A DNA stretch of 64,000 nucleotides from Gigantopelta aegis (taxonomy: Eukaryota). The stretch is from NCBI RefSeq assembly GCF_016097555.1, contig NC_054701.1:67288366-67352365 (forward strand). Direction: 5' to 3'. The position numbers and the translations under genes are program-made. This document shows, in pieces, positions 373-57,985 of the stretch. Every line of letters begins with the position of its first letter. The first letter of the stretch is position 1. The notes beneath the pieces are model-generated. The model saw nothing but the letters and a program-made list of their open reading frames with translations. It searched no databases and had not been told where the DNA came from.

Positions 373-703
373 TAAAGTTTGTTTTGTTTAACAACACCAC
401 TAGAGCATACTGATTTATTAATCATCGGCTACTGGATGTCAAACATTTGGTAATTCTGACATATAATCTTAGAGAGGAAACCTGCCACATTTTTCTATTA
501 GTAGCAAGGAATCTTTTATATGCACCATCCCACAGACAGGATAGCACATGCCATGGCCTTTGATATATAAGTCGTGGTGCATTGGCTGGAATGAGAAATA
601 ACCCAATGAGCCCACCGACATGGATTGATCCTAGAGTGACCACATATTAGGTCGAGCTCTTTACCACTGGGCTACGTCCTGTCCCTGTTCATGTCAAGAG
701 AGG
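373..703 (-). mobile_element. tRNA-derived SINE, family A (tRNA-like head, conserved core GGATAGCACATACCATGGCCTTTGATATACCAG, tail type A ending TTAAACAAAACAAAC)
   Basis: The head carries A-box-like TAGCCCAGTGGTAAAG and B-box-like GGATCAATCC. Many near-identical copies in the window. Confidence 0.85.
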
Positions 704-1454
704 AACCACTGCAGGTTTCAATTATGACATCACAAAATTGAAATCACACATTAAACGGCTGAACTAGGATTATTTTGCTTTAAGAAAAGAAAAAAAGTAG
801 ATAAATTAATTTGAAAACTTTCAACTAAAATAATATGATTTCTTATAAAAAGGCACTGTATTTTGTTTATGGCACAGATTTGATTACATAATTTCAAACA
901 GCATAGGTGTATGTTGATTCTGATGTACATGTATGTATAAGGGAGTAGGAATAATAATCAAAACATCTTACCAGGCAACGAAGAAACTTTATGAATTCTC
1001 TCAGCTGAAACAAACAAATCATTTGGTTAAATTTCGTTGTTAAAAACATTCGACTCTGTTGTAACCAACCCATATTTTAATGATAGATCTAGGTATGGAA
1101 TGGCACTTTACAGGTGTGTGGGTGTAAACTAGAATTGGCCCCGAACCTTTTAGGTTGCCCTTATCTTTGCACGTGCACTATGAGTAGCATAAATGAGCAT
1201 AAAGGTTGGAGAAAACAATCACATACATAGATGAAACCACTTATCGCACTATAAGCCGTCTCAAACATTTCACACCTTATATACCTATGATGACTGTCAT
1301 GCTACACTGCGTTAGACAGTAGGTAGTTATTAAAAAAAAAAAAAGGTAGTTTTTAATGTTTCACTGAAAAAAATAAAGAAAACATTTACAAGATATTATG
1401 CCTGAAAATTTTTAATGAATAGGCATGAATGTTGACTGATGTCCTTCTTCGCTC

Positions 1455-1800
1455 AGTCAGATGAGTACTCGCCTGAAGATCGAACCACCTCGGTGGATCC
1501 ATTCGACTGATTGGGGTTTTTCTCGTTCCAACCAGTGCACCACAACTGGTCAAAGGCTGTAATATGTGCTTTCCTGTTTGTGGGAAGGTGCATATAAAAG
1601 AACCCTTACTGCACTAGGAAAAATGTAGCAGGTTTCCTCTGATGACTACGAGTCAGAATTACTAAATGTATGACGTCCAATAGCCGATGATTAATTAATC
1701 AATGTGCTCTAGTGGTGTTGTTAAACAAAACAATTTCTTTACAATAGCTGAAGATTAATGAATCAATGTGCTCTAGTGGTGTCGTTAAACAAAACAAACT
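1455..1800 (+). mobile_element. SINE family A copy with a divergent head. Its 3' tail is locally duplicated across 1690-1800.
   Basis: Core and tail A sequence. The 60-bp tail segment TGATTAATTAATCAATGTGCTCTAGTGGTGT.GTTAAACAAAAC is repeated twice. Confidence 0.7.
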
Positions 1801-1917
1801 TTCCACCACTGCCATCAGAAAAGTAATACCTATATCTCACCTATTTAGTTTTTAAAGAAGAGACAATTTTTTTTTTTTTTAAATTGTTAGAAGGTCATAT
1901 GACAAGATAACAGGAAG

Positions 1918-2236
1918 GAAATGTTTTGTTTAACGATGCACTCAACACATTTTATTTACAGTTATATGGTGTCGGACATATGGCTAAAGACCACACAGAT
2001 ATTGAGAGAGGAAACCCGCTGTCGCCACTTCATGGGCTACTCTTTTCGATTAGCAGCAAGGGATCTTTTATATGCACCATCCCACAGACAGGATAGTACA
2101 TACCACGGTCTTTGTTACACCAGTTGTGGAGCACTGGCTGGAACGAAAAATAGCCCAATGGGTCCACCGACGGGGATCGATCCCACACCGACTGCGCATC
2201 AAGCAAGCGCTTTACCACTGGGCTACGTCTCGCCCC
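1918..2236 (-). mobile_element. SINE with tail type B (GTTAAATAAA..CATATGTCTGACGCCATATAACCGTAAATAAAATGTGTTGAGTGC)
   Basis: Full head, core and tail B. Ends 29 bp from the donor of the second SAP-like exon of the RNF34/RFFL-type gene. Confidence 0.85.
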
Positions 2237-2264
2237 TGACATATGACAAGATAACAGTCCCCAC

Positions 2265-2460
2265 CTTTTGCCTTGTTGTTCTGTTCTTCCTTCCAGAGCC
2301 GCTTCACCCGGTCCACGAGCTCGGCTTTCTCACAGCATCCCTTGTAGTCGACAAAGTTGTTAGCCAGAACTTCCTTCAGCTGGCGTGCGGTCAGGTTTCC
2401 TATATCATCGAGAGACGAAATCTTCTCAAGCTTCATGCGAGGAACTGGCTCACCATGAGT
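2265..2460 (-). CDS. Second SAP-like exon of the RNF34/RFFL-type gene: THGEPVPRMKLEKISSLDDIGNLTARQLKEVLANNFVDYKGCCEKAELVDRVKRLWKEEQNNKAK
   Basis: Strong match to RNF34 [56 protein letters not shown]. Minus-strand acceptor tttgtAG is at plus 2461-62. Donor GTgggg is at plus 2263-64. Length 196 nt, phase 0 to 1, linking in frame to the RING exon. Confidence 0.85.
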
Positions 2461-2620
2461 CTACAAATAAAAATGCACTAACTAACTAAATATTTTTAAA
2501 AGAGAAATATTCTCAAGCTTCATGCGAGGAACGAGTCAAAAAATAAAAATGCACTAACATCATTTAAAATAGAAATATTCTCAAGCTTCATGCGAGGAAC
2601 TGGCCTACCAAGAGTCTAAA
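2400..2620. repeat. Three tandem copies (70-90 bp) of a unit containing the acceptor site and start of the second SAP-like exon (..TTCTCAAGCTTCATGCGAGGAAC..)
   Basis: The motif recurs at 2417, 2508 and 2578. Only the copy at 2417 continues into the exon. Confidence 0.75.
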
Positions 2621-2713
2621 AATAAAAATGCACTAACCACATTTAAAATTTTAAAACAGACAAACACTCTACATATCTACAAATTGGCTAAACAAGCACA
2701 GTGACAGCAAGTA

Positions 2714-3090
2714 ACAGGGCTCACCCTGGATCAAAAATACCTGTAGCCAAAATATTAGCCAAATGGAATTTTCATTAGCCATATTGAAAATGCTTTAGCC
2801 AAATTTGTTTTACGCAGTACTGTATAGAGTATTTATATATGAATATGAAAATGTATCTTTTTCAGCTAATTGTGTACAAACTGGAATAAATAGGAATAAC
2901 AAAACCTTAATGGGGGTAGGGGCAGTTAATATATTACTTCGATTTTGTTTCAGCGGGGGTGGGGTTGGGATGGGGTTAAGCAATATCTTCAGAGTCTGAA
3001 GCCAGTACCCCATACACCCACCCCCACTTCTAAGGCCTATGACATTAAATTAACAAATGTACAGAAATATGGGTGGGTGGGTGGATGTTT
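2714..3090 (+). repeat. Dispersed repeat family of about 370 bp (GGCTCACCCTGGATCAAAAATACCTGTAGCCAAAATATTAGCCAAATGG...)
   Basis: A reverse-complement paralogue lies at 20300-20662, inserted in a SINE. Fragments at 4420-4500 and 8995-9070. Confidence 0.7.
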
Positions 3091-3151
3091 ATGGATGGTG
3101 TTTTTTCTTTCTTCCTTTTTTCCCCAAAGAAATATTTGAGAGCTTTTTTTT

Positions 3152-3157
<6 letters not shown>

Positions 3158-3225
<68 letters not shown>

Positions 3226-3226
3226 C
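3158..3226. repeat. (TA)n microsatellite of about 34 units, followed by a T-run at 3292-3322
   Basis: Read directly. Confidence 0.95.
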
Positions 3227-5699: not shown

Positions 5700-5990
5700 T
5701 GATAGTCTATTAATACATTGTTTAATAACACCACTAGAGCACATCATCATCGGCTATTGGATATCAAACATTTGGTAAATCTGACATATAGTCTTAGAGA
5801 GGAAACCTGCTTATTTTTTCCATTAGTAGCAAGGAATCTTTTATATGCACCATCCCACAGACAGGACCGCACATACTACAGACTTTGATATACCAGTCGT
5901 GGAACACTGGCTGGAACAAGAGATAGCCCAATGGGGCCACTGACGGGGATTGCTCCTAGACCAACCATGCCTCAGGCAAGCACTTGAGGA
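5700..5990 (-). mobile_element. SINE family A. It forms a head-to-head inverted pair with the next copy.
   Basis: Tail A, core and partial head. Confidence 0.75.
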
Positions 5991-6262
5991 GTGCATTGTA
6001 TTGGTCTAGAATCGAACCCTCTCAGTGCACACATTCCCCGATTGTGTTTTCACCCATTCTAACCAGTGCCCCATGACTGGCATATTAAAAGATGTGGTAT
6101 ATCCTGTCCTGTCTGTGGGAAAGTGCATATAAAAGATCCCTTGCTTCTAATGGAACAATGTGGTAGACTATATGTCAGAATTACCAAATGTTTGACATTC
6201 AGTAGCTGATGATTAATAAATCAATGTGCTCTAGTGGTGTCATTAAACAAAACAAATTTTAT
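5990..6262 (+). mobile_element. SINE family A (partial head), inverted partner of the copy at 5700-5990
   Basis: Core and tail A ...GTGTCATTAAACAAAACAAA. Confidence 0.75.
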
Positions 6263-6424
6263 TTTATTTATTCAGTTAGATAGTGCTACAAAGTGTCACA
6301 TCAACTGAAGAAAGTAATATAATTAACATATTGTTTAACAATGGTATTTAAAAAAACTATTCTAAGTAATTATATCATGTTTAGTCTGCATTAAACAGTT
6401 ATAAAGGTGTGATGATGAAGAAGT

Positions 6425-6640
6425 TTGTTTTGTTTAATGACACCACTAGAGCATATTGATTTATTAATCATCAGTTATTGGATGTCAAACGTTTGGTCAT
6501 TTTGACATATAGTAGAAAAGAGGAAACCTGCTACATTTTTCCATTAGTAGCAAGGGCTCTTTTATATGCACCATCACAGACAGGATAGCACATACCACAG
6601 CCTTTGATATACCAGTCGTGTTGCACTAGCTGGTGTGTGA
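6425..6640 (-). mobile_element. SINE family A, 5'-truncated
   Basis: Tail A plus core. Confidence 0.7.
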
Positions 6641-9413: not shown

Positions 9414-9611
9414 TTATAATTTTATGTCAGTATAGTATGAACCCACAGCTAAATTTTCCACCATCCTTTCATGTTCTGACTGTTGCTGATTTTCAGGCAA
9501 CCGAGAGAAGTACTTGACGAGAAGGTCAACGAGGTCAATTTTCTCCCGACACATGCCTGTGGGAATGTTGTGGTGATCAAGAAAACATCTCATGTCCTTC
9601 ACCTTCCATTG
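9414..9611 (-). CDS. First SAP-like exon of the RNF34/RFFL-type gene: QWKVKDMRCFLDHHNIPTGMCREKIDLVDLLVKYFSRLPENQQQSEHE... The 3' (donor) boundary is not resolved.
   Basis: Matches RNF34 [38 protein letters not shown]. Minus-strand acceptor gttttcAG is at plus 9612-13. The open frame runs to a stop at plus 9414. The true donor probably lies within 9414-9460. Confidence 0.75.
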   Translation of the reverse strand, partial: QWKVKDMRCFLDHHNIPTGMCREKIDLVDLLVKYFSRLPENQQQSEHERMVENLAVGSYYTDIKL

Positions 9612-11039: not shown

Positions 11040-11145
11040 GGATGGTTTGACATTTGGTTGAGAGAGGGAGAGAGGGAGAGGGAGAGGGAGAGGGAGAGAG
11101 AGAGAGACAGAGACAGAGACAGACAGGGAGAATGTGAGATGGACG
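11040..11145. repeat. (GAGAGG)n/(GA)n/(GACAGA)n purine microsatellite
   Basis: Read directly. Confidence 0.9.
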
Positions 11146-13560: not shown

Positions 13561-14094
13561 CCTTATAAGTTGAGTCCCTAATTTCAAGTATTGAAAACTT
13601 TTTTTTTTTTTTTAAATTGATCCGTTAAAGTTGACCTGTGACAAAATTACCTACATGTAGATAAATCTTAAAAAAGTATTTATTATTTTCAGCAAATGAG
13701 AATGTTCAATGATTCATGATAACAAAAACGTTTACTTTCCAGATCAAATAATGCAATTACTGTGCACATTTTACAATGTATCAAGAGGTCATGTGATATG
13801 CAGTACAAATAAGTGGGAGGTGGCCATTGGGTGTGTTCTCAATTGAGATAAAGAATGAACATTGTCAGTGACCCAGGAAGTTGATATGTGTTTAAGTGTA
13901 AAGGTACTAAGAGCATATATGCATGATGTACATGTGTATGTAAACATATTTGTTTAAGGTTGGTTACAGCAATCTAACAAAAATGCACAAAAGATTATTA
14001 AGGACATTAGTCAATATATTTTTTTCAGTGTATTACAGAATACACTCATGTCTGTTTTTCATTTCAATTTATTTCCGTGCAAATATCCAATTAC

Positions 14095-14335
14095 GGTTCA
14101 AGCATGCTGTGCTGGGCACACACCTCGGCTATCTGGGCTCTGTCCAGGATAGTGGGTTAGTTGTTAATAGTTAGTGGTTAGTGAGAGAGAAGACGGTGTA
14201 GTGGCCTTACACCTATCCACTGAGTCGTTAAAACTCACTCTGGGTGGGAGCCGGTACTGGGTTGCGAACCCTGTACTTATCAGCCTGTAGTCCGATGACT
14301 TAGCCATGACACCACTGAGGCTGGTTAATTTACTG
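14095..14335 (-). mobile_element. SINE family C (same tRNA-like head as family B, different body ..GTGGGTAGGTGTAAGGCCACTACACC..CTGTCCTGGACAGACAGCCCAGATAGC..)
   Basis: Homologous copies at 38466-38730, 42258-42520 and 30690-30835. Confidence 0.75.
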
Positions 14336-19780: not shown

Positions 19781-20173
19781 ACCGGCCTCGGTGGTGTCGT
19801 GGTTAGGCCATCGGTCTACAGGCTGGTAGGTACTGGGTTCGGATCCCAGTCGAGGCATGGAATTTTTAATCCAGATACCGACTCCAAACCCTGAGTGAGT
19901 GCTCTACATGGCTCATTGGGTAGGTGTCAACCACTTGCACCGACCAGTGATCCATAACTGGTTCAACAAAGGCCATGGTTTGTGCTATCCTGCCTGTGGG
20001 AAGCGCAAATAAAAGATCCCTTGCTGCTAATCGGAAAGAGTAGCCCATGTAGTGACGACAGCGGGTTTCCTCTCAAAATCTGTGTGGTCCTTAACCATAT
20101 GTCTGACGCCATATAACCGTAAATAAAATGTGTTCAGTGCGTCGTTAAATAAAAACATTTCTTTCTTTCTTTC
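19781..20173 (+). mobile_element. SINE family B (head GGCCTCGGTGGTGTCGTGGTTAGGCCATCGGTCTACAGGCTGGTAGGTACTGGGTTCGGATCCCAGTCGAGGC, family-A-like core, tail B), flanked by an 11-bp TSD
   Basis: TSD tgtaacactga at 19768 and tgtaatactga at 20174. The paralogous duplicate at about 23930 is uninterrupted at this site. Confidence 0.85.
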
Positions 20174-20299
20174 TGTAATACTGAATTAACTGAACATTAT
20201 TGTACTCTAAAAGTTGTTTAGGGTGGGATGTAACCCAATGGTAAAGCACAGTCGTTCTAGGGTCGATTCCTGTAGCCCATTGGGCTATTTCTTATTCTA

Positions 20300-20662
20300 G
20301 CCAGTGCACCCACCCCCATATTTCTGTATGTTTGTTAATTTAATGTCATAGGCCTTAGAAGTGGGGATGGGTGTATGGGGTACTGGCTTCAGACTCTGAA
20401 GATATTGCTTAACCCCATCCCAACCCCACCCCCGCTGAAAAAACTCGAAGTAATATATTAACTGCCCCTACCCCCATCAAGGTTTTGTTATTCCTATTTA
20501 TTCCAGTTTGTACACAATTAGCTGAAAAAGATACATTTTCATATTCATATATAAATACTCTATACAGTACTGCTTAAAACAAATTTGGCTAAAGCATTTT
20601 CAATATGGCTAATAAAAATTCCATTTGGCTAATATTTTGGCTATAGGTATTTTTGATCCAGG
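20300..20662 (-). repeat. Second copy of the 370-bp dispersed repeat, inserted into a SINE family A copy
   Basis: Reverse complement of 2714-3090. Splits the SINE into 20225-20300 and 20662-20830. Confidence 0.7.
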
Positions 20663-21514
20663 GTGAGCCCTGACCACTACTGGTATATCAAAGGCCATAG
20701 TATGTGCTGTTCTGTCTGTGGGATGGTGCATATAAAAAATCCCTTTCTACTATTGGAAAAATATAGTGGGTTTTCTCTAGCCGATCGATGTGCAGTAGTG
20801 GTGTCATTAAAACAAACTTTAACTTTTTAAACTAAAGTTGTTATTACTATTTCAATTGTTCCAATTGCGAGCACTAAACTGGCTGCTGTGCAGCAAAGTT
20901 TGCCTAATAGATGTCAAGAAATGTAACCTGTATCAGCTACAAATATTAACTATGTAACCACAGTATTTTATCAAAACGTGTATACATGTAGAATGATATG
21001 TGTGTGTGGAGGAGGGTGGGGTGGGGTGGGGGCGCATGCACTACAGGGGCCTTTCAACTATTACGTAACCCTCTGTCATGGTGACAATGTTTAATGTAAG
21101 CATATACGTGCAATATATAATGGTTATAAATCAATTTGAAATGTGGGTATGTGCGTGTCTCCAAGCATTTTGTAATATTGGATGGGTGGGTTATGGTATA
21201 GCATTACGGGGGGAGGGAGGGTGTCTAAATTTGACAAAAATAGCATTACAACTTACATAACATTTGAACAGCCCCATAGTGGGAAGGATATAAGAAATTC
21301 ATTCATTACTTTAACTGAACTTTGGTGGCCATTTAGTTGACTGTTAATGACTTTACCAAAAAAATTACATCAAGAAGTCGGAACTGGTTGGATATAACAG
21401 AGATGAAATAACTAGTACAGGTATTTGGAATTCAAAATGTGCTTGAACATGTAATATTATATTTATAATTTACAGAGGAATTGACTGTATATATATGTGG
21501 ACTGCTACCATTAT

Positions 21515-22739: not shown

Positions 22740-25050
22740 ATTTCTTACATATCCACAAAAACCAGGTTTTAAGCAAATTTTAACATCTTTTTCGACTAAA
22801 TGTTATTTACAGCTGTAGTTAACTTACACGTCACAGACACATGATTGTCAGGTTAACTATATTTCACAAAAAAAGAAGAAAAGAAATGTTTTATTTAACG
22901 ACGCACTCAACACATTTTATTTACGGTTATATGGCGTCAGACATATGGTTAAGGACCACAGATTTTGAGAGGAAACCCGCTGTCACCACATAGGCTACTC
23001 TTTTATGACAGGCAGCAAGGGATCTTTTATTTGCGCTTCCCACAGGCAGGATAGCACAAACCATGGCCTTTGTTGAACCAGTTATGGATCACTGGTCGGT
23101 GCAAGTGGTTTACACCTACCCATTGAGCCTTGTGGAGCACTCACTCAGGGTTTGGAGTCGGTATCTGGATTAAAACCCCATGCCTCGACTGGGATCCGAA
23201 CCCAGTACCTACCAGCCTGTAGACCGATGGCTAACCACGACGCCACCGAGGCCGGTTTTGTATGTCACAATGTAATCTATTTCCACTGTGTTGTTTTTAA
23301 TTGGATGCATTGCACTGGTGACCTGGTCATCGCCTAGGAGCAATCAGTAGTATGTTTTGAAATTGTTAACACATGTTAACATGTACATGTGTTAACAACT
23401 ATGTGTTACCAAAAATAATGCATGGTGTTCTCACCAACGGGTGTGTAGGGTGTATACTACCAAATCAAATCCCATAGACGACAATAGTAACATATGCGGC
23501 TAAAACTCCTACCTGCAACGTATCAACCGACATAAACGCCACGGATATAAATACTACCACCCCTTACACTTAAAGTGAATCAGAAAAAAATGGGGGTCAA
23601 GCTGCTCGTTTCTGAGATAACGGGTAGCGTCTATGACTACACTAGTTTTACAGGTACCCCATACATGTTTCAAGCACAAGGCTACTTGACACATTGGTAC
23701 TAGATGAAATAAAATTGCACATTTATTTTACCCAGATGAAACTATTATTTTTTACAACCAACACACTCACATTTATAACCAATCACAGGACTTGTGGTGT
23801 TCACTTCTCTATCAAAAGTTCGGTGCACCTCGAACTTTGACCCAGTCGGAACTTATTTGGTATAGTACTACCTGTAAGAAACATGAATATTGAGTATTAT
23901 TTGGAAAATGTCGGTGCTGACTTGCATGCATCTGTAACACTGAATTAACCGAACATTATTGTACTCTAAAAGTTGTTTAGGGTGGGATGTAATCCAGTGT
24001 TAAAGCACTTGCTTGATGTACAGTCGGTCTGGGGTTGGGCTATTTCTCATTCTAGCCAGTGCACCACTACTGGTATATCAAAGGCCATGGTATGTGCTGT
24101 TCTGTCTGTGGGATGGTGCATATAAAAGATACCTTTCTACTATTGGAAAAATATAGTGGGTTTTCTCTAGCCGATCAATGTGCAGTAGTGGTGTCATTAA
24201 AACAAACTTTAACTTTTTAAACTAAAGTTGTTATTACTATTTAAATTCAAATTCAAATTCAAATTGTGAGCACTAAACTGGCTGCTATGCAGCAAAGTTT
24301 GCCTAATAGATGTCAAGAAATTTCAGGGGCATAGGCTGGGGATGTCCGGGGTGTTCGGACGAACACCCCGCTGAAGCAAATGGTCCGCTTTCAGTACTAA
24401 AACATACAGGTTTATAAATATGGAGTTTCGGGTAGTGCAAAAACAAAATAGAAAAAGGTCCACTTTGTTCATATTCGAACCCCCCCAGGTCCAGATCACG
24501 CTACGCCCTTGAATGTAACATGTATCAGCTAAAAATATTAACTATGTCACCTCAGTATTTTATCAGAACATATATACATGTAGAATGATATGTGTGTGGA
24601 GGAGGTGGGGGGGGGGGGGAGGTGCACATACTATAGGATCCATTCAAATATTACGTAACACTGTCATGGCGACAATGTTTAATGTAGACGTATACATGTA
24701 TGCAATATATAATGATTATAAATCGGGAAATTATGGTCTATCATTACAGGGGGGAGGGTAGGTGTCTAAATTTTACAAAAATAGCGTTACGTAAGATTTG
24801 AAGGGCCGCATAGTGGGAAGGATATATAAGAAATTCACTTGCTACTTTAACTGAACTTTGGTGACCATTTAGTGGACTGTTAATGACTTTACCAAAAATA
24901 TTATATCAAGAACCTTTTGGATATAACAGAGGAAATAACTAGTACAGGTATTTGAAATTCAAAATGAGCTTGAACATGTCATATAATTTACCGAGGTATT
25001 GGTTATGTACATATGGACTGCTTCCATTATTAATGCTTAACAACTTAAAG
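22740..25050. repeat. Segmental duplication, copy B. It carries extra insertions at 23446-23880 and 24320-24520.
   Basis: As above. Confidence 0.75.
22868..23256 (-). mobile_element. SINE family B
   Basis: Full-length reverse copy. It sits at a different position in duplicate B than the family-B copy in duplicate A. Confidence 0.85.
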
Positions 25051-38465: not shown

Positions 38466-38730
38466 AGGGACATTCGGTGGTGTCGTGGTTAAGCCATCGG
38501 ACATAAGGCTGGTAGGTACAGGGTTTGCAGCCTAGTACCGGCTCCCACCCATAGCGAGTTTTAACGACTCAATGGGTAGGTGTAAGGCCACTACACCCTC
38601 TTCTCTCTCACTAACAACTAATCAACTAACAACTAACCCACTGTCCTGGACAGACAGCCCAGATAGCTGAGGTGTGTGCTCAGGACAGCGTGCTTAAACC
38701 TTGAGTAGATATAAGCACGAAAATAAGTTG
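38466..38730 (+). mobile_element. SINE family C (in ASL intron 4)
   Basis: tRNA-like head GGTGGTGTCGTGGTTAAGCCATCGGACATAAGGCTGGTAGGTACAGGGTTTG plus family-C body. Confidence 0.75.
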
Positions 38731-38830
38731 AAGGAAGGATGAAGGACACTGTCACATGAATAAAAAATAAGCAGCCCCCCCCAAAAAACACCCAACCCCA
38801 AAACTGTTGTATGTTGTTTTTTTCTTTTAG

Positions 38831-38985: not shown

Positions 38986-39918
38986 GTAAGTAATTTGACA
39001 AAGCATTCATTTGTTGAAGTGCAAGCCTCATAAATTGGGGTGGGAGGGTGTCTTTAGGTATTTAGGTAAGGATGGATGCAATGCTCTTTTTAGAAAAAAC
39101 TTAAACCTAATTTCCTAGCATGTGCAGAACAAAAATGAAATATACAAGTATTTTAGGTAACAATTTTGGGCTTTAAAATTTATTTATTTTGGTTTTATGT
39201 CCATATTAAGATAAAGAAAGTGTATGTTATGATCTTCCTAAGTCCCCCTAAGTGTGTTAGTGTGTGTTTCTTGAAAGACTGACACAAGAAATTCAAACCA
39301 GGATTCCAGGCAGTAGCATCATGTTATACAAACAAGCAACTTAAAAGTTTGTTTTGTTTAACAACACCACTAGAGCACATTGCTTTATTAATCATCGGCT
39401 ATTGGATGTTAAACATTTGGTATTTTTTTTTAACTTTTATGTCTTAGAGAAAACCCACTCAGGGTTTCTGCCAGAAAGAAATTTTAGGGTATAGCGCTGT
39501 GGAATTGAATATTTACAATGTGTGTGCTGAATGCAACCACAGTCAACAGGGGGTATGGGTGGGTGGGTGGGGGGGGGGGGGGGGCGCCTCTCCCAGAAAG
39601 AAAGTATGTTAGGTTTAGGGTTAGGGTTAAGAAAATCATACAGTAATAATAAAGAGTAATTAATTTTGTTAAAATCTGCTAAAAATTGGGTATGGTATCC
39701 TTTTATATGCACTTTGCCACAGACACTGAGATAGGATAGCACATTCCATAGCCTTTGGAATACCAGTCATGCTGCACTGGTTAGTTAAAAGCAGACATTC
39801 TACACATGCATAATTTATTCCATTGCTGACAATATAGTGTCAAATAAGTGATTTTATTACCAGTATGTAGAAGAGTAAAGAACAAAGTCAATAATTACTG
39901 ATGTTAATTTGTGTTTCA

Positions 39919-42257: not shown

Positions 42258-42520
42258 AAAGCCACGGGCTTTGGTTGTGTAGTGGTTAAGCCATCAGACA
42301 TATGGCTGGTAAGTGCTGGGTTCGTATCCCGGTACCGGCTTTCACCCAGAGTGAGTTTAAAATACTCAGTGGGTAGGTGTAAGGCCACTACACCAACTTC
42401 TCTTTCACTAACAATTAACATTAACCCTCTGTCCTGGACAGACAGCCCAGATAGCTGAAGTGTGTGTCCAGGACAGTGTGCTTGAACCTTAATTTGATAT
42501 AAGCATGGAAATAAGTTAAA
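42258..42520 (+). mobile_element. SINE family C (in ASL intron 7)
   Basis: As above. Confidence 0.75.
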
Positions 42521-43310
42521 ATGAATTAATACAGTGGGAACCCACCATTAATCAAGTTTGATAGATCCCCTTTGATTTGTAATGTGTTTCTGTAGACCTC
42601 CATGAATCCACCGTCTCTTGTGAACCACAACATATTTTATAGGATATTAAACAAGCTTCAAAATTTCGTATCATGTTTATGTTCCGAGTGAAATAATTTT
42701 CAATTGTCATGTGCTTTAGCAAGGGACATAAACATTATACAAAATCGTAGCAAGTTTAATCTCCTCTTTATTACCCATAATTAATTTCAGTTTATATAAC
42801 TGTGCTCGTTTGATTAACGTTCAAGTAAGGTCGTAGTGCGCCAATAATATGACGTCGATGCGTTATGTCCCACATGATATTCTATATATGGGTAGTAATT
42901 TATTATTTTGTGAAAAGTTCACCTGTTGTTGATCTTAAAGGCATATTATCACAGACCACTGAACTATTGATTAGCCTAACAAAGTATTACCTGAAATATA
43001 TAAATTTGATTTGTCCCTAAATGTACTTTATTCAACCATCTACATGTACGTAGCCACCATATTCCACTTATTAATGATATTTCGTAAAAATAATTGAATT
43101 ATGGCAGTGGTCTATAATTCAAAAACTAATATTGGCAACAGGGTTGACATGGCTTTCACTCCATCGTGGTTCAGTTACGGTGATGTGATAGCTAGATTTG
43201 GTTTCCAAATATTAATGTAATTTTCATTCATTATCCATTTTTAGAGAAATAAGGTTCTTGAATCTGTGACAGTATGCCTTTAAAATGCTATGATTCTAAT
43301 TGAATTCCAG

Positions 43311-43363: not shown

Positions 43364-44056
43364 GTTCTTATTCTTCAGATTTTCGATGATCTTTCTCAGT
43401 ATGTTTAGAAAAGCATTTTCCGTTTCAGATTTTTCATTTTTCCGTTTCATAATGTTACAAATTCCGGTTTTTTCCTTTTCAGTATTAAACAAATTCTGTT
43501 TTTGTTTCACTCACACCACACACACACACACACACACACGCTCAGTGATGCATATGAGCACACACACACCAATAGCATATAACATGGCAATGTCGCAAAT
43601 GTTAAAAATTAATAAGCAAACATAACATAATATATCTTTCACTTGAGTAAATATCGGACAATTTTAGCTCACAATGCTCGGTTTTTCCCGTTAAATCGCC
43701 GGGAATAAGCAAAGAAAACACGACTGGTAAAATGTCTAGATACTCTACATTAAACATTTGGCGTAACATACAAAGGTACTAGTGTCGTAGCGTAGCACAG
43801 GCAGATGTCGGTGTCCATAGTTTCTAGTTCGAAAAATAAATTTTAATTAATAAAATGCGCTATTTAAAGTTAAATAATGTTTTGGAAAAAAATCGGGAAT
43901 TCCGTTTCAGATAGGTATTTCCGCGATTCCGCGATCGCGGAAAATCAGTGCCTCTAAGCATGTAGATGGGTTGTAACTTGCTTTTATCTCAATTACCATG
44001 GGATAAATATGGGTTTTGTTTTGTAATACAATCAAACCTGTATATAACAGGCAGGT

Positions 44057-44360
44057 GGGACGTAGCCCAGTGGTAAAGCACTCACATGATGCGCGGTCGG
44101 TCTGGGATCAATCCCCATCAGTGGGCTCTTTGGGCTATTTCTTGTTCCAGCCAGTGCACTATGACTGGTATATCAAAGGCCGTGGTATGTGCTCTCCTGT
44201 CTGTGGGATAGTGCATATAAAAGATCCCCTGCTACTAATGGAAAAAATGTAGCGGGTTTTCTCTCTATGACTGTGTCAAAATGACTATATGTTTGACATC
44301 TAATAGCCGATGGTTAATAAATCAATGTGCACTAGTGGTGTCGTTAAACAAAACAAACTT
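44057..44360 (+). mobile_element. SINE family A, full length (in ASL intron 8)
   Basis: Head GGGACGTAGCCCAGTGGTAAAGCAC..GGGATCAATCCCC, core, tail A. Confidence 0.85.
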
Positions 44361-44503
44361 TATTTGTATATACAAGCCACCCAAAACATACACAAAACAT
44401 TCCTTTTTATACCTGGATAGTGAAGGTAGAACAATGTTAAACAGTGTAGAAAATATGATTGTACTTCATTTAATCTACCAAATGGATGCCCAAAATAATG
44501 TTA

Positions 44504-45566: not shown

Positions 45567-46139
45567 CAGTGAAACCTCTCAAGACCGGACCCTCTGTAAA
45601 CTGGAATTCCCTCAATAGTGGACGTTTTACAGAGTCCCTTTTTAAAACCGGCCTCGGTGGCGTCGTGGCAGGCCATCGGTCTACAGGCTGGTAGGTACTG
45701 GGTTCGGATCCCAGTCGAGGCATGGGATTTTTAATCCAGATACCGACTCCAAACCCTGAGTGAGTGCTCTGCAAGGCTCAATGGGTAGGTGTAAACCACT
45801 TGCACAGACCAGTGATCCATAACTGGTTCAACAAAGGCCATGGTTTGTGCTATCCTGCCTGTGGGAAGCGCAAATAAAAGATCCCTTGCTGCTAATCGGA
45901 AGAGTAGCCCATGTAGTGGCGACAGCGGGTTTCCTCTTAGAATCTGTGTGGTCCTTAACCATATGTCTGACGCCATATAACCGTAAATAAAATGTGTTGA
46001 GTGCGTTGTTAAATAAAACATTTCTTTCTTTCCCTTTTTAAAAACCAGGATAGAACGTAACCGCTGTAAATTAGATCCCTCTTAAAAGCAGACATTTGTC
46101 TTGTTCCCAAGGGTGTCTGGTTTAGAGGGGTTTCACTGT
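45567..46139. mobile_element. MITE (TIR CAGTGAAACCTCTCAAGACCGGA...TCTGGTTTAGAGGGGTTTCACTG) interrupted by the SINE above
   Basis: TIRs at both ends. Intact about 180-bp paralogues elsewhere in the window. Confidence 0.8.
45648..46032 (+). mobile_element. SINE family B nested inside a 180-bp MITE, with a 10-bp TSD CTTTTTAAAA
   Basis: TSD at 45638-47 and 46033-42. The host MITE is reconstructed as contiguous in paralogues 62645-62822 and 11441-11615. Confidence 0.85.
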
Positions 46140-46291: not shown

Positions 46292-46871
46292 GTGAGACTC
46301 TGCTTAGTTAAACTTACAATTCAGTCCATACCATGTCCACTCCATGAATCCCAAAATAATGAAGAACCCCAGGGCTCATATTTACAAAATATATTGTATT
46401 TATTCATTCATCGAACCTGTGCAGCAAAAACAAAAATTGCCTCCACTCCCTTCTGTACTTGAAAAACCTCCCATAGAATATTTATATTGTTAACGATTTT
46501 TATTTAATCCTCAGACTCTTTAACGCAGAAATGACAATAAAGGCCAGATGATTGATTGCCTTGATAAATTCAGGTTCACCCCCCCCCCCCCATCAACAGT
46601 ACATCAAACGCTGTGGTATGTACTGTCTTGTTTATGAGAGAACACACAGATAAAAGATGCCTTGCTGCTTTTTTGTGGCAATCTCCATCTCTTGACCAGA
46701 TCGCTGTAGTTTAAAAATGTACTGAGGTGTCATTGAACAAACATTCCCTTTTCTTGAACGACGCCATATAACCGTAAATAAATGTGTTGAGTGCATCGTT
46801 AAATAAAATATTTCTTTTTCTTGAAATAATTATTTTATTACGAAAATATATGTATATTTTTTTCACTACAG

Positions 46872-46986: not shown

Positions 46987-47224
46987 GTAGGTGCATATTT
47001 GAGCCCAGGGGCGGATTATAGGGGGTTTCCCAGTTGCACGGACCCAACCCCCTCCCCCGGCTAAAGAAAACCCAACCCCACCACGTAGATCTAAATTGAT
47101 GTCCACGTAAAATTTATAATTTCAAATTATAAACATTTACATATTGTTTCGGAAACAGCCCCCCTTACCTAAAGCATAATCTGCCCCTGGAGCCCATATA
47201 GGTAATAAGTTTTAATAAAAGTAA

Positions 47225-47620
47225 AGTAAAGTTTGTTTTATTTAACGACGCCACTAGAGCACATTGATTTTTTATCTTATCATCGGCTATTGGACGTCAA
47301 ACATATGGTCATTCTGACACTGTTTTTAGAGGAAACCCGCTGTCGCCACATAGGCTACTCTTTTTACGACAGGCAGCAAGGGATCTTTTATTTGCACTTC
47401 CCACAGGCAGGATAGCACAAACCATGGCCTTTGTTGAACCAGTTATGGATCACTGGTCGGTGCAAGTGGTTTACACCTACCCATTGAGCCTTGCGGAGCA
47501 CTCACTCAGGGTTTGGAGTCGGTATCTGGATTAAAAATCCCATGCCTCGACTGGGATCCGAACCCAGTACCTACCAGCCTGTAGACCGATGGCTAACCAC
47601 GACGCCACCGAGGCTGGTAA
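47225..47620 (-). mobile_element. SINE family B (ASL intron 10)
   Basis: Full-length reverse copy. Confidence 0.85.
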
Positions 47621-47689: not shown

Positions 47690-47880
47690 TTGAAGTGAGT
47701 TGTAGAGTTTGCCTACGGTGAGATGGGTTTTCCTCAGTGGACCCATCCCAACCAGTGCTCCACGACTGGTACATCAACTATCCCTTGCTATTAATAAATA
47801 AAATGTAGTGGGTTTCCTCTGAAGGCTACATGTCAGAATTACCCAATGTCTGACATTCAGTTGCCAATGATTAATTAAAG
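47690..47880 (+). mobile_element. SINE family A, degraded
   Basis: Partial head, core and tail. Confidence 0.55.
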
Positions 47881-50361: not shown

Positions 50362-50645
50362 GGAGATCGATCCCCATTGGTGGGCCCATTCGGCTATTTC
50401 TTGTTCCAGCCAGTGCACCATGACTGGTATATTAAAGGCTGTGGTGTGTACTACCCTGTCTGTGGGATGGTGCATATAAAAGATCCCTTGCTGCTAATCG
50501 AAAAGAGTAGCCCATGAAGTGGCGACTGCGGGTTTCCTCTCTCAATATCTGTGTGGTCCTTAACCATATGTCTGACACCATATAACTGTAAATACAATGT
50601 GTTGAGTGTGTCGTAAATAAAACATTTCTTTCTTTCTTTCTTTTT
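50362..50645 (+). mobile_element. SINE (5'-truncated, tail B). Its CT-rich 3' end abuts the T-run and AG acceptor of ASL exon 13.
   Basis: ...AAATAAAACATTTCTTTCTTTCTTTC tttttttttccAG|GAAGAC. Confidence 0.8.
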
Positions 50646-50834: not shown

Positions 50835-51062
50835 AAATTCTCGTTCTAGCCAGTGCACCTTGACTGGTACATCGAAGGCTGTGGTATGTGCTGTCCTGTG
50901 TGGGATGGTGCATATAAAAGATCCCTGGCTACTAATGGACAAATGTAGCGGGTTTCCACTCTAAAACTATATGTCAAAATTACCAAATTAGTTAACATCC
51001 AATAGCCAATAATTAATAAATCAATGTGTTTTAGTGGTGTCATTAAACAAAACAAACTAACG
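50835..51062 (+). mobile_element. SINE family A, 5'-truncated (ASL intron 13)
   Basis: Core and tail A. Confidence 0.75.
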
Positions 51063-54452: not shown

Positions 54453-56327
54453 CAGCATATACGCTTCATTCAGCAGACATATTTGTGCCATTTCGCTTCT
54501 GTTTTTTATTAATTTGTTTTTGCTGACAACATGGAATGTTGACAATGTGTATTTTTATTTGTTCCCATTTAAAATATCGTACTAGATGTGTCTATTGTTA
54601 TTCAGATTTGGGAAGTTTTTATAAATTTGGGCAAAAATCAGCCTGTCCAGCCCTACTAAAATGGCAGCTTTTGCTTTTTTATGTCCCAGATGGTATCAAA
54701 AATGTGGCTTGACAAAAGATATTGAGAATACTTCACGAATGGCCGTTAAGATACCATTTATCGTACAGTGATTTGTTTCAGAAGTTATTTAACGAGTAAA
54801 ACTAAGTTGGATTAGTTTTTAAACAATGAGTTGTAAGATATATGGACGTGAGCGAAATACATGGATTCCATTTCATACATATCCTCAAAGACCAGGCTTA
54901 AATTAAATTTATATGTCTGTTCAAACTCAAACCTCTGCATCCCAGAGCAATCAGCTTCAGGTTAACTTACATGTCATAAATCAATCAATTTTATTCTTGC
55001 TTATTTCATTGGATGATATGGGTTTGGTGTTCAGGTCATCACATTTTAATTTTTTGGTGTGGGTGGCAGGTGCATGTGCAGTGGGAGAGTTTGGGGGTCA
55101 AACCTCCTCGATCTGCTCAAACAAATTTCTTTTCTTTTTTTCAATATATTTTCTGGGGGAGCACAACTTGACCCCTTATAAACTTTGGTGGTCACAGTCA
55201 AGACCCCCTGGCAAAATTCCTGCACATACACCTGAGTGGCATAGTAAGGAAAGTTTTTTTTATAAACAGTTTATTAGCAACAGTGCTGATCAATATGATA
55301 ATTGAGACACAATTACTATTTAATGTTTTATATTTGTGTAGTGATCTCCGACATTTGCTGAGCAAATTGCTGTGCGACACTGAATCTCATGTTCCCTGGA
55401 TGGGGCAGCTACACTGTAATGTATTTAGAAGAGTGTTTCGATAAAAGAACATTGAGTTTTAAAGATTTGAAATCCTTCTTGAACTAGGCGAAGGGTGTCC
55501 ACTTCTCCACTGAATCTCATGTTAGGTTTTTATGTTCCTATACTATAAAATGAATGTGTTTTTTTTTAAAATTACACACCAGCACATTTTAAACTAGGGC
55601 TGGTGGATGACTTCAAATATGACATTAACAGGGGACAATATTTCAAAATCTTAGGTAGGGCCTAACCAGAAGTCGGTTCTCCTAACCGATGAGTTGGACC
55701 TACCTAATCCTAAAACACTTTAACTACGGTTCTGTGCTACATTGGTGGTTCAAGCACATAAACTAATTTTCACTTCCATTAATGATATATGGTACTTTTA
55801 ATTTTAGAATGTAATTGTTCAGCACATAACTGATTGGCGGTTTTCATGATTTTAAAGTTGCGTAACTGACACGCAAATAGAATGGTTCTCATGAAGTATT
55901 GTGCCCTGCATTAACACATGTCTAAGATATGACATTAACACGTCTAAGATATGACATTAACACGTCTTTGATATGACATCAACAATACATTACTTTTAAT
56001 ACCTTAAAAATAAAGTATTGTATTATTAAGGTCACTATTTTGATATTTTTACTTGTATTTGTTATCTGTCTTAACACTGACAGTGACATATCTCAACATA
56101 CATGTATGTCATTTGTAAGCTCACTGCCATTTTTTTTTATATGCATTATCCTACATTCAGAATAGCACATTGCATGTTGAAAATTGAGTGGAACATAAAA
56201 ATGTCAAATGTGTTTATTCACTAAATGTTATACGCAAACTCATAATGGTAAAGGGTCATGTGCAAATATAAAACAGGATTCTTACGCATACAGGAATGTC
56301 CTTGAATTTTGTGATTTTAAAATCCAG

Positions 56328-56433
56328 GGCCCCATTCCACGAAGCAATCTTAGCCCTAAGATTACCTTAGGCGCATAGCTACCCAATGCACCGAAGTTGA
56401 TCTTAGGGCTAAGATCGCTTCGTGGAATGGGAC
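56328..56433. repeat. Paralogous palindrome of about 105 bp (same family as 37347-37447)
   Basis: GGGCCCCATTCCACGAAGCAATCTTAGCCCTAAGAT...ATCTTAGGGCTAAGATCGCTTCGTGGAATGGGACCC. Confidence 0.7.
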
Positions 56434-57134
56434 CCAGGCCTGGAATGTTCTGGAAAATGCATTAAATTTTTATTGTGTCCAGGAAATGTACTGGAAATTT
56501 AGTCCAAAAATTTGGTGGTTTATTATTTTTGGCATCTTTACTTTTGTTGTTCTCATAACCTGTCTAAATTCAGACAACAATTTGTTATAAAAACATTGAT
56601 TGATTGAACATTTCATGTCCTGAAATTTTTTTTCAAATGTCCTGGAAATGTTCTTGAATTTTATGCTTTTTTCAAGTGTAAGAACCCTGTAAAAATTTAG
56701 TTATTCAAAAAGTAAGACTTGGTGCACTATGTGATTGTTGTTGTTTTGAAAATTAATTTCAATTATATTTTAAACAATGTGTGCAGGATCTATACATTTA
56801 TATATACTAAGTATTTGAATAATTTAATTTTTTCAATCACATGAAAGATTTATTGACTTTTCCTTAACTACTGCAAGCAGTGTCTTATATAGATACCGTA
56901 TTCAACTCCACTAAAAATACACCACCCATCCACCCATATTTTCAGTTATTGCATCGTACATGTGGGGTTGCTATAAAGCATACAATAACCCTCACCTTTG
57001 TATTAAAATGTTGTGTTATTTATTACCTACAAGAATACATCCGGTTATGAAAAATCAGTCAATTGTATTATTAATTCTTCTGTTATTATTATTAGACTTT
57101 ACACATCTGACCGATGTGTTTTCATTGAAGTTCG

Positions 57135-57461
57135 GGGGCGAGACGTAGCCCAGTGGTAAAACGCTTGCTTGATGCACTGTCGGTTTGGGATCAATCCACG
57201 TCAGTGGGCCCATTGGGCTATTTCTCGCTCCAGCCAGTGCACCACGACTGGTTCACCAAAGGCCGTGGTATGTGCTATCCTGTCTATGGGATGGTGCATA
57301 TAAAAGATCTCTTGCTGCTAATCGAAAAGAGTAGCCCATGAAGTGGCGATAGAGGGTTTCCTCCCTCAATATCTGTGTAGTCCTTAACCATATGTCCGAC
57401 GCCATGTAACCATAAATAAAATGTGTTGAGTGCGTTGTTAAATAAACCATTTCCTTCCTTC
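57135..57461 (+). mobile_element. SINE (tail B), full length, with an 11-bp TSD CATTGAAGTTC
   Basis: Flanks are ttCATTGAAGTTCggggg at 57121 and ccttCATTGAAGTTCagt at 57458. Confidence 0.85.
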
Positions 57462-57667
57462 ATTGAAGTTCAGTATATGCAGCTAGTTAATGAAAGTATG
57501 AACTAAACAGTATGGCACACACTCTACATGTCCGCATAGAAGTTCATTACAAGCATAAAAAATTACAGTGAGCTTCATTGAAAAAGTACCTGTCAGATTA
57601 TATAATATGTAGTTGTAAAATGAATATCAGAAGAAACTGTGTTACTTCTATCTGATTCAGAATAATT

Positions 57668-57985
57668 TGAAGGAAGGAAATGTTTTATTTGACAATGCAC
57701 TCATTTTATTTACGGTTTTATGGCATCAGACATACGGTTACGGATCAAGCAGATATCGAGAGAGGAAACCTGCTGTCACCATTTCATGAGCTACTCTTTT
57801 CGATTAGCAGCAAGGGATCTTTTATATGCACCATCCCACAGACAGGACAGTACATACCATGGCCTTTGTTACACCAGTTGTGGAGCACTGGCTGGAACAA
57901 AAAATAGCCAAATGGGTCCACCGATGGGGATCGATCCTAGACTGACCGTGCATCAAGCGAACCCTTTACCACTGGGCTACATCCC
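57668..57985 (-). mobile_element. SINE (tail B)
   Basis: Full-length reverse copy. Confidence 0.8.

What the first reader, a model, noticed from the sequence alone, without database searches (positions are those of the whole stretch)
373..57985. Modular SINE superfamily with one shared core, at least two tRNA-like heads and two alternative 3' tails
More than 20 copies share the core GGATAGCACATACCATGGCCTTTGATATACCAGTCGTG (variants ..GGTTTGTGCTATCCTGCCTGTGGGAAGCGCAAATAAAAGATCCC). They combine this core with different ends. Head 1 is GGGACGTAGCCCAGTGGTAAAG..GGGATCGATCCCC. Head 2 is GCCGGCCTCGGTGGTGTCGTGGTTAGGCCATCGG..GGGTTCGGATCCCAGTCGAGGC. Tail A ends ..CCGATGATTAATAAATCAATGTGCTCTAGTGGTGTCGTTAAACAAAACAAAC. 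Tail B ends ..CATATGTCTGACGCCATATAACCGTAAATAAAATGTGTTGAGTGCGTCGTTAAATAAA. Observed combinations are head 1 with tail A, head 1 with tail B, and head 2 with tail B. A third family (C) reuses head 2 with an unrelated body. Clear TSDs of 10-13 bp show recent activity, for example at 19768/20174, 45638/46033 and 57121/57458. This kind of module shuffling is what template switching during retrotransposition would produce.
Basis: seen in the sequence. Interest (0 to 1): 0.5.

Follow-up and report, generated by a model that had tools for sequence, protein, structure and literature searches.

The report
Mosaic tRNA-derived SINE families, snail genome
About a tenth of this snail genome window consists of short tRNA-derived retrotransposons (SINEs) that share one body but carry swapped heads and tails; this is a real but already well-documented way for mollusc SINEs to evolve.

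Summary
At least 26 pieces (6.4 kb, 10% of the window) belong to SINEs that share a roughly 120-nt body. Two unrelated tRNA-like heads occur with two tail types. Each combination is bounded by its own target-site duplication (TSD). Two insertions have matching empty sites, one in a paralogous repeat and one at the orthologous intron position in another species.

There are three corrections:
- Tails A and B are diverged homologues (about 55% identical over their whole length), not unrelated modules.
- Family 2 is itself a chimera: its first 160 nt resemble family C and its last 225 nt resemble family 1B.
- A further exchange point lies between the core and the tail.

The host is a gastropod whose only protein matches for one ORF are from Gigantopelta aegis. 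The same body and tail occur in a second species at about 93% consensus identity. That is higher than the 78-87% identity of the orthologous exons.

No partner LINE was found. Assignment to a named conserved-domain superfamily could not be tested. The pattern matches the reciprocal head/tail exchange published for Littorina SINEs Lsa_3 to Lsa_6, so these are new members of a known kind.

The parts
133..321 (-). Old family 1A-type fragment (body + degraded tail A)
   Evidence: 74.5% to the 1A query; sequence read
373..687 (-). Family 1A, full length: head 1 + body + tail A, lacking the 17-nt post-core block
1478..1802 (+). Family 1A, 5'-truncated
1912..2239 (-). Family 1B, full length: head 1 + body + post-core block + tail B. 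It lies 22 nt 3' of a splice donor of the RNF34-like gene.
   Evidence: 18-bp TSD CTGTTATCTTGTCATATG. The orthologous site in L011 is empty. Head scores 26.3 bits on the Rfam tRNA model.
5718..5985 (-). Family 1A copy
6057..6272 (+). Family 1A copy, 5'-truncated
6421..6633 (-). Family 1A copy, 5'-truncated
   Evidence: 13-bp TSD TTCATCATCACAC
19781..20169 (+). Family 2B, full length: head 2 + linker + body + tail B
   Evidence: 12-bp TSD with 1 mismatch; ARAGORN cloverleaf
20225..20310 (+). Head 1 + start of body. Probably the 5' part of an interrupted family 1 copy whose body continues at 20674-20778.
20674..20778 (+). Family 1 body fragment
   Evidence: 88% to the 1A query
22877..23256 (-). 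Family 2B, full length, with the alternative (q-type) post-core block CCTGTCAT..GCCTATGTGG
   Evidence: no TSD detected
23980..24210 (+). Family 1A copy
29654..29833 (+). Family 1A copy, truncated at both ends
36531..36624 (+). Tail B only: a strongly 5'-truncated insertion
   Evidence: 14-bp TSD CTTCATAT(C/T)TAAATG
39344..39780 (-). Family 1A copy split by an internal insertion of about 270 bp
44054..44365 (+). Family 1A, full length
   Evidence: 8-bp TSD
45647..46033 (+). Family 2B, full length, inserted into a MITE-like repeat
   Evidence: TSD CCCTTTTTAAAA. Paralogous empty site at 62640-62830. ARAGORN tRNA at 45651-45722. Rfam tRNA 21.1 bits.
46590..46817 (+). Old degraded body followed by tail B
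   Evidence: 11-bp TSD around the tail piece
47209..47618 (-). Family 2A, full length: head 2 + linker + body + tail A'. This is the fourth combination.
   Evidence: Head and body are 94-98% identical to 2B. The tail is 82-83% identical to 1A but 63-65% to 2B. A 13-bp TSD TTTATTAAAACTT flanks the whole element.
47780..47878 (+). Family 1A fragment
50365..50636 (+). Family 1B, 5'-truncated
   Evidence: 13-bp TSD
50838..51058 (+). Family 1A, 5'-truncated
   Evidence: 12-bp TSD
57132..57461 (+). Family 1B, full length
   Evidence: 13-bp TSD TTCATTGAAGTTC
57669..57989 (-). Family 1B, full length; forms an inverted pair with the preceding copy
   Evidence: 10-11-bp TSD; ARAGORN reads the head as tRNA-Ile(GAU)-like
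59149..59183 (-). Core fragment
61563..61623 (+). Tail B only
14058..14318 (-). Family C: head 2-like tRNA + shared linker + a different body and tail (..AATAAGTTGAAATGAA)
30645..31066 (-). Family C copy with an internal insertion
38473..38732 (+). Family C copy
42270..42525 (+). Family C copy
   Evidence: ARAGORN tRNA-like
62640..62830 (+). Uninterrupted paralogue of the MITE-like repeat that hosts the 2B insertion at 45647-46033; serves as the empty site

Best explanation
The window holds several related families of tRNA-derived SINEs, which are non-autonomous retrotransposons. Each element has four parts:
- a tRNA-like head with internal RNA polymerase III A and B boxes;
- a shared body of about 120 nt;
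- a post-core block of about 40 nt;
- a tail of 60-75 nt that forms a stem-loop and ends in a short tandem repeat: (TTTC)n or (TTCC)n for tail B, (CTTTA)n for tail A.

Inferred mechanism: the element is transcribed from its head. The reverse transcriptase of an unidentified partner LINE recognises the tail. The copy is made into a nicked target by target-primed reverse transcription. This leaves TSDs of variable length and many 5'-truncated copies.

The families are mosaics. Heads, core variants, post-core variants and tails occur in combinations that no simple branching history can give. The most likely cause is template switching of the reverse transcriptase between co-expressed SINE RNAs. 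Family 2 arose this way from a family 1B-like 3' part and a family C-like 5' part. Family 2 is the youngest family. Family 1A is the oldest and the most numerous here.
For: Shown:
- Copy number and shared sequence: about 24 core-bearing loci plus 3 tail-only copies.
- tRNA-likeness of head 2: the Rfam tRNA model gives 21.1 bits. ARAGORN folds all four head 2 copies into cloverleaves.
- tRNA-likeness of head 1: the Rfam tRNA model gives 26.3 bits.
- Promoter boxes: A box TAGCCCAGTGG and B box GGATCGATCC in head 1; B box GGTTCGGATC in head 2.
- TSDs of 8-18 bp around at least 12 copies, including full-length copies of all four combinations and the 5'-truncated tail-only copy at 36531-36624; a further tail-only piece, 46759-46817, lies inside the old copy 46590-46817 and also has one.
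- A paralogous empty site for the 2B copy at 45647 and an orthologous empty site in another species for the 1B copy at 1912.
- Mosaic structure, per-segment identities: the 2A head and body are 94-98% identical to 2B, while its tail is 82-83% identical to 1A and 63-65% to 2B. The 1B head is 76-84% identical to 1A, while its tail is 76-88% identical to 2B and 48-54% to 1A.
- Family 2 chimera: consensus positions 5-160 align to family C, and positions 163-387 align to family 1B at 89%.
- Core variant (1 or 2) combined with post-core variant (p or q) gives all four pairs when the window and related contigs are pooled.
- The 2A type is seen again on L001, L003 and L004.
- Tail stem: 6 bp closing the tail loop, 84.6% of cells paired against 17-76% for slid controls. 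G-C changes to A-U on both sides in 5 sequences at one pair.

Inferred: Pol III transcription, LINE dependence and template switching. These follow from the general biology of SINEs and from the same reasoning in PMC4758252 and PMC4824008.
Against: - No partner LINE with a matching 3' end was found in the window or in about 100 kb of related contigs. The one RT fragment seen (L004 9334-9876) ends in an unrelated sequence.
- Both heads score below the Rfam tRNA gathering threshold of 29 bits. ARAGORN folds head 1 in only 1 of 5 copies.
- The young family 2 carries an internal T5 run followed by AA at consensus position 82. That is a canonical Pol III terminator, so full-length Pol III transcripts would need read-through.
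- The compensatory changes in the tail stem are both CpG-type transitions and could have coincided by chance.
- In the window, the 2A type and the q-type 2B are each seen only once.
Confidence: 0.85

Rival explanations
1. The mosaics arose at the DNA level. Ectopic homologous recombination or gene conversion between dispersed SINE copies created a new chimeric master copy. RNA-level template switching was not involved.
For: Copies are dense (about one per 2.5 kb) and often adjacent or inverted, for example 57132-57461(+) with 57669-57989(-) and 5718-6633. The exchange points fall in stretches identical between families: CCAGTG, GATCCCTTGCTGC and GGGTTTCCTCT. Either mechanism would use such stretches. 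The q-type 2B copy at 22877-23256 has no detectable TSD.
Against: The chimeric 2A and 1B elements have their own TSDs and recur as families. So the chimera must at least have become a transcribed master copy. The sequence does not exclude a DNA-level origin of that master.
Confidence: 0.3
2. There was no shuffling. One lineage diverged gradually, and the shared states in different families are parallel changes or ancestral polymorphism.
For: Tails A and B are homologous over their whole length. Tail 'replacement' is therefore not required to explain how two tail types came to exist.
Against: The differences are multi-nucleotide blocks: two unrelated tRNA heads at 49-56% identity, a 14-nt indel plus about 45% substitutions in the tail, and a 17-nt block. 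All four head-by-tail pairs and all four core-by-post-core pairs occur. Parallel origin of such blocks is implausible.
Confidence: 0.04
3. The combinations are artefacts of nested insertions or truncation of unrelated repeats lying side by side.
For: Some loci really are nested or interrupted: 39344-39780, 20225-20778 and 30645-31066.
Against: Each full-length combination is collinear without extra sequence at the junctions and is flanked by a single TSD. Empty sites show single-step insertion of the whole element.
Confidence: 0.02

Closest known systems
Littorina saxatilis Snail-domain SINEs Lsa_3 to Lsa_6 (Matetovici et al. 2016, PMC4758252)
   Same: These are gastropod tRNA-derived SINEs in which two heads (each with its own linker of about 50 bp) and two 3' body/tail parts are reciprocally combined around a shared central domain. 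All four combinations are present. No partner LINE was found. Template switching was proposed.
   Different: The host lineage differs. Sequence relatedness to the Snail or Nin-DC domain could not be checked because no reference sequences are available in the tools. Here the two tails are homologous to each other, and a further exchange point exists between the core and the tail.
MetaSINE / MESC superfamily, including HalSINE1 of Haliotis and LitSINE1 (Nishihara et al. 2016, PMC4824008; Matetovici et al. 2016)
   Same: Mollusc SINEs with a tRNA head followed directly by a conserved central domain, variable tails and hybrid elements explained by inter-SINE template switching.
   Different: Haliotis MESC SINEs are described with an internal (CA)n microsatellite and (CACCT)n ends, and neither is seen here. 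Identity of the core with the 66-bp Meta domain or the 95-bp MESC domain was not testable.
RUDI / V-domain SINEs of molluscs (Luchetti et al. 2016, cited in PMC5804259) and bivalve HCD SINEs (Martelossi et al. 2024, PMC11481361)
   Same: SINEs whose whole body is strongly conserved between distant mollusc species. They show 'mosaic' sharing of LINE-derived tails between superfamilies, accumulate in introns and form tandem or palindromic arrangements.
   Different: Membership is therefore unproven.

Membership tests
tRNA-derived SINE (SINEBase-type definition) | 5' head derived from a tRNA, with internal Pol III A and B boxes | tested here: met
   Rfam tRNA model: head 1 scores 26.3 bits with E=0.0018; head 2 scores 21.1 bits. 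Both are below the gathering score of 29, as is usual for SINE heads. ARAGORN folds 4 of 4 head 2 copies and 1 of 5 head 1 copies. A and B boxes were found.
tRNA-derived SINE (SINEBase-type definition) | Short (under about 600 bp), non-coding, many dispersed copies in both orientations | tested here: met
   Full-length elements are 312-410 bp. There are 26 pieces, 16 on + and 10 on -. Sense-strand ORFs are absent. Antisense ORFs are not conserved between consensus sequences.
tRNA-derived SINE (SINEBase-type definition) | Insertion by target-primed reverse transcription: variable-length TSDs, 5' truncation, empty sites | tested here: met
   TSDs of 8-18 bp on at least 12 copies. Tail-only copies with TSDs. 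Paralogous and orthologous empty sites.
tRNA-derived SINE (SINEBase-type definition) | 3' tail shared with a partner LINE | tested here: inconclusive
   No LINE 3' end matching tail A or B was found in the window or in loci L001-L012. Eukaryotic genome or repeat libraries cannot be searched with these tools.
tRNA-derived SINE (SINEBase-type definition) | Transcription by RNA polymerase III | not testable with these tools
   Promoter boxes only. An internal T5 in family 2 is a possible obstacle.
Reciprocal 'jigsaw' SINE families (as Lsa_3 to Lsa_6) | Two 5' modules and two 3' modules joined to one central domain in all four combinations, each as a TSD-bounded element | tested here: met
   1A, 1B, 2B and 2A are all present. 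The TSDs are 8-bp TGTATATA (1A, 44054-44365), CTGTTATCTTGTCATATG (1B), CCCTTTTTAAAA (2B) and TTTATTAAAACTT (2A).
Named HCD superfamilies (V/RUDI, Meta/MESC, CORE, Deu, Nin-DC, Snail, Ceph) | Significant sequence similarity of the body to the superfamily's defining central domain | tested here: inconclusive
   None of the papers held gives a reference sequence as text. Meta, MESC, Snail and Nin-DC were not testable.
HCD-type behaviour (conservation across species beyond neutral expectation) | Body conserved between species whose unique DNA has diverged | tested here: met
   Comparing the window 1B consensus with the consensus from the host of ENA assembly ERZ25071447: 235/253 (92.9%) from GGACCCATTG to the 3' end, but 55/72 (76%) in the head. 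The eight orthologous exon blocks of the RNF34-like gene are 78-87.5% identical, and the SINE insertions are not orthologous. Only two species were compared.

The most novel reading that the evidence does not exclude
The body, post-core block and tail together (about 250 nt) would be an undescribed highly conserved SINE domain of neomphaline or vetigastropod snails. It would be held at about 93% identity between species whose orthologous coding exons are only 78-87% identical. Two causes are possible: unusually strong selection on master copies, for example a structured RNA that the partner reverse transcriptase must recognise along most of its length, or recent horizontal transfer between snail lineages.
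Probability: 0.2. Interest if true: 0.5.

Novelty: new member of a known kind. Interest (0 to 1): 0.3.

Why it matters
The window gives a clean example of SINE evolution by module exchange, with TSDs bounding each combination. It comes from a gastropod lineage related to the vent snail Gigantopelta, whose SINEs are not described in the genome papers I could read.

There are also practical consequences:
- The elements make up about 10% of this genic window.
- One copy sits 22 nt from a splice donor.
- The antisense strand is read as ORFs in thousands of entries of public protein collections (7,714 cluster representatives).
- A GTDB 'Spirochaetia' MAG carries host contigs full of these elements.

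A curated consensus library would improve repeat masking, gene prediction and decontamination for these genomes. The conceptual content, shared core with swapped heads and tails, was already published for Littorina and for bivalves.

Tried and rejected
- Rfam at gathering thresholds found nothing in the window.
- Exact-sequence searches of the paper library for six SINE motifs found no relevant paper.
- No supplementary sequence files are held for the three key SINE papers.
- The look-up of encoding contigs failed for the two Gigantopelta aegis proteins tried (P0001, P0002), so no G. aegis DNA could be fetched.
- The window has no long ORF other than a multi-copy proline-rich ORF without any Pfam domain, so no LINE was found.
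- Viral-contig scans with the tail and core patterns found nothing.
An eyeballed resemblance of the GGGAT..TGCAT..ATCCC hairpin to the V-domain hairpin of DANA is therefore not claimed.
- I tried to read organism names from the antisense-ORF hits. All ten sampled clusters were unnamed ENA ORFs.
- I considered that the antisense ORF might be a real coding sequence. I rejected this because the consensus sequences of the different families carry stops in every frame except one frame of one family.
- A DNA transposon or MITE is rejected: there are no terminal inverted repeats and the TSD length varies.

Full report
OBSERVATION

The quoted motifs are real and non-random. The core 38-mer, the head 1 22-mer and the head 2 34-mer give 3, 6 and 1 matches at up to 3 mismatches. 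Zero matches were expected in shuffles. The exact-pattern counts understate the family because the copies are diverged.

A self-BLAST of the window shows about 25 intervals hit by 14-20 other places. Mapping eight module queries and five full-length queries gives about 24 core-bearing loci plus three tail-only copies. Together they form 26 pieces and 6,432 bp, or 10.05% of the window, on both strands. Four further loci form 'family C'.

ANATOMY

A MAFFT alignment of nine full-length copies shows the layout.

- Head 1 is about 70 nt. Its A box is TAGCCCAGTGG and its B box is GGATCGATCC.
- Head 2 is about 75 nt. Its B box is GGTTCGGATC. It carries an extra linker of about 85 nt.
- The two heads are unrelated apart from general tRNA features (49-56% identity with about 70 gap columns).

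From CCAGTG onward all copies align to the 3' end, in this order:
- a body of about 90-120 nt that includes the hairpin GGGAT..TGCAT..ATCCC;
- a post-core block (AAAGAGTAGCCCATG.AGTGGCGACAGCGGGTTTCCTC), of which 17 nt are missing only in family 1A;
- the tail.

Tails A and B are not unrelated. They align over their whole length at about 55% identity. They differ by a 14-nt indel, by many substitutions and by the terminal repeat, which is (CTTTA)n for A and (TTTC)n, (TTCC)n or (TC)n for B. A third variant, A', occurs in the 2A element and in related contigs.

All tail variants keep a 6-bp stem (GACGYC or GACATC pairing with GRCGTC or GGTGTC) that closes the tail loop just before GTTAAAYAAAAC. 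Across 26 tails, 84.6% of cells are paired, against 17-76% when the partner is slid. One pair changes from G-C to A-U on both sides in five sequences. Those changes are CpG transitions, so this is suggestive rather than proof of a functional stem-loop.

tRNA-LIKENESS

The Rfam tRNA covariance model scores head 1 of the copy at 1912-2239 at 26.3 bits (E=0.0018 for the 361-nt stretch). It scores head 2 at 45651-45722 at 21.1 bits. Both are below the family's gathering score of 29, as expected for decayed tRNA derivatives.

ARAGORN folds all four head 2 copies into cloverleaves, but only one of five head 1 copies, which it reads as tRNA-Ile(GAU)-like. The source tRNAs are therefore not securely identified.

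MOBILITY

- A TSD search found direct repeats of 8-18 bp around at least 12 copies. These include full-length copies of each of the four combinations and the strongly 5'-truncated tail-only copy at 36531-36624. A second tail-only piece, 46759-46817, lies inside the old copy 46590-46817 and also has one.
- The 2B copy at 45647-46033 interrupts a MITE-like repeat. An intact paralogue of that repeat at 62640-62830 shows the empty site and the duplicated CCCTTTTTAAAA.
- The 1B copy at 1912-2239 lies 22 nt downstream of a splice donor of an RNF34/rififylin-like gene (Pfam RNF34L-like_3rd). At the orthologous position in another species (locus L011) the site is empty, and the target CTGTTA(T/G)CTTG... 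is present once.
- Variable TSD length, 5' truncation and simple-repeat ends are the signature of LINE-mediated target-primed reverse transcription.

MOSAIC STRUCTURE

Per-segment identities show discordant relationships.

- The element at 47209-47618 is 94-98% identical to 2B copies in head and body. Its tail is 82-83% identical to 1A tails and only 63-65% to 2B tails.
- 1B copies group with 1A in the head (76-84%). They group with 2B in the post-core block (82-95%) and in the tail (76-88%, against 48-54% to 1A).

All four head-by-tail combinations therefore exist, each inside a single TSD. The head 2 + tail A' type is not a one-off. It recurs on three metagenome contigs, L001, L003 and L004.

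There is also an exchange point between the core and the post-core block. Core variant 1 or 2 is found with either post-core variant: p (TAATCG.AAAGAGTAGCCCATG.AG) or q (CCT.TC.TAAAAGAGTAGCCTATG). This holds when the window copies and contig L004 are pooled.

Family 2 is itself a chimera. Consensus positions 5-160 align to the family C consensus (105 matches, with a 26-nt gap). Positions 163-387 align to the family 1B consensus at 89%.

The exchange points lie in short stretches identical between the partners. Both RT template switching and DNA recombination would use such stretches. The sequences cannot tell the two apart.

AGE

- Family 2 copies are 94-100% identical to each other in head and body.
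- Family 1B copies are about 80-97% identical to each other.
- Family 1A copies are about 74-87% identical to each other or to the 1A query.

Family 2 is therefore the youngest. Family 1A is the oldest and the most numerous in this window.

HOST AND CROSS-SPECIES EVIDENCE

The only long ORF, at 26833-27702(-), matches ten paralogous proteins, all from Gigantopelta aegis, at 69-91% identity. The window therefore comes from that snail or a relative.

A tail-pattern scan of public collections returned four metagenome contigs and five contigs of a 'Spirochaetia MAG'. The MAG contigs are host DNA. One carries a gelsolin-repeat exon that is identical to an ORF on a 412-kb contig of ENA assembly ERZ25071447.

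The same ENA assembly holds the orthologue of the window's RNF34-like gene. Eight collinear exon blocks are 78-87.5% identical at the nucleotide level. That second species is rich in 1B-like SINEs at non-orthologous positions.

Its 15-copy consensus was compared with the window's 1B consensus. Identity is 92.9% (235/253) from the end of the head to the 3' end, but only 76% (55/72) in the head. The body and tail are thus better conserved than the coding exons. This is the behaviour reported for highly conserved-domain SINEs of molluscs (PMC11481361 abstract; PMC5804259). Horizontal transfer is the alternative explanation.

WHAT COULD NOT BE SETTLED

No partner LINE was found. The window has no RT ORF. 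The one RT fragment in the related contigs (L004 9334-9876, RVT_1) ends in an unrelated sequence.

The tools hold no eukaryotic repeat library, and the SINE papers carry their sequences only in figures. Membership in V/RUDI, Meta/MESC, Snail, Nin-DC, CORE or Deu is therefore untested.

The young family 2 contains an internal T5 followed by AA. That is a canonical Pol III terminator and it is unexplained.

COMPARISON WITH KNOWN SYSTEMS AND VERDICT

Matetovici et al. (2016) described the same arrangement in another gastropod, Littorina saxatilis. Its families Lsa_3 to Lsa_6 have two heads with head-specific linkers and two 3' parts, joined reciprocally to a shared central domain. All four combinations were found, no partner LINE was identified, and template switching was proposed. 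Nishihara et al. (2016) and Martelossi et al. (2024) describe the same logic for MetaSINEs and for bivalve HCD SINEs.

The genome papers on Gigantopelta and Chrysomallon do not describe SINEs. These families are therefore probably undescribed, but they are new members of a known kind.

The finding is correct, and three details were refined here: the tails are homologous, a fourth combination exists, and family 2 is a chimera. Its interest is modest.

Noticed in passing
window 1-13188, minus strand: An RNF34/rififylin-like E3 ligase gene. Eight exon blocks are collinear with locus L011 (ENA ERZ25071447 ctg87267) at 78-87.5% nucleotide identity. Seven SINE copies lie in its introns, and one of them is 22 nt from a splice donor.
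   Followed up: partly
L005-L009 (CBDCGX010000004/12/18/35, 'MAG: Spirochaetia bacterium'): These contigs of a GTDB species-representative MAG are mollusc host DNA. They carry a gelsolin/supervillin exon and many SINE copies, so the MAG is contaminated with host sequence.
   Followed up: partly
window 1915-2238 (+), antisense to the 1B SINE: The antisense strand of the SINE is open for about 108 codons. A search of the 1.84-billion-protein library found 7,714 cluster representatives at E<=1e-3 and 1,523 at E<=1e-30. The ten sampled are unnamed ENA ORFs. These entries are spurious 'proteins' made from SINE copies.
   Followed up: partly
window 62640-62830, 45564-45647 + 46034-46140, 11441-11621: A MITE-like repeat of about 185 bp with terminal inverted repeats CAGTGAAACCTCTC / GAGGGGTTTCACTG. 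One copy hosts the 2B SINE insertion.
   Followed up: partly
window 26833-27702, minus strand: A 289-aa proline-rich ORF with ten paralogues (69-91% identity) annotated only in Gigantopelta aegis under unrelated names. It has no Pfam domain. It is probably part of an uncharacterised repeat.
   Followed up: partly
window 21510-22093; 22049-22191 and 27829-27976: A 96-bp-period tandem array. A 148-bp direct repeat (92.6% identical) lies 5.8 kb away and brackets the region that contains the proline-rich ORF and two SINE insertions.
   Followed up: no
window 40100-41219: A CT-rich low-complexity block of 1.1 kb with strong GC and AT skew. It produces long artefactual Leu/Ser/Cys ORFs.
   Followed up: no
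family 2 copies, e.g. window 45722-45740 (GGGATTTTTAATCC): An internal T5 run followed by AA, about 82 nt into the youngest SINE family. This is a canonical Pol III terminator inside an evidently mobile element.
   Followed up: no
L004 2185-4593 (+) and 9334-9876 (-): A metagenome contig from a related host carries an 802-aa integrase-core + OTU protease ORF (a eukaryotic transposon protein) and a LINE RT fragment. Neither is linked to the SINE tails.
   Followed up: partly
L009 3050-3480: A 38-nt tail B fragment with its flanks has been amplified as a tandem unit of about 135 bp, present in three copies.
   Followed up: no
window 57132-57461 (+) and 57669-57989 (-); 5718-6633: SINE copies cluster as inverted or alternating pairs within a few hundred bp. 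This is the tandem or palindromic arrangement reported for bivalve SINEs.
   Followed up: no
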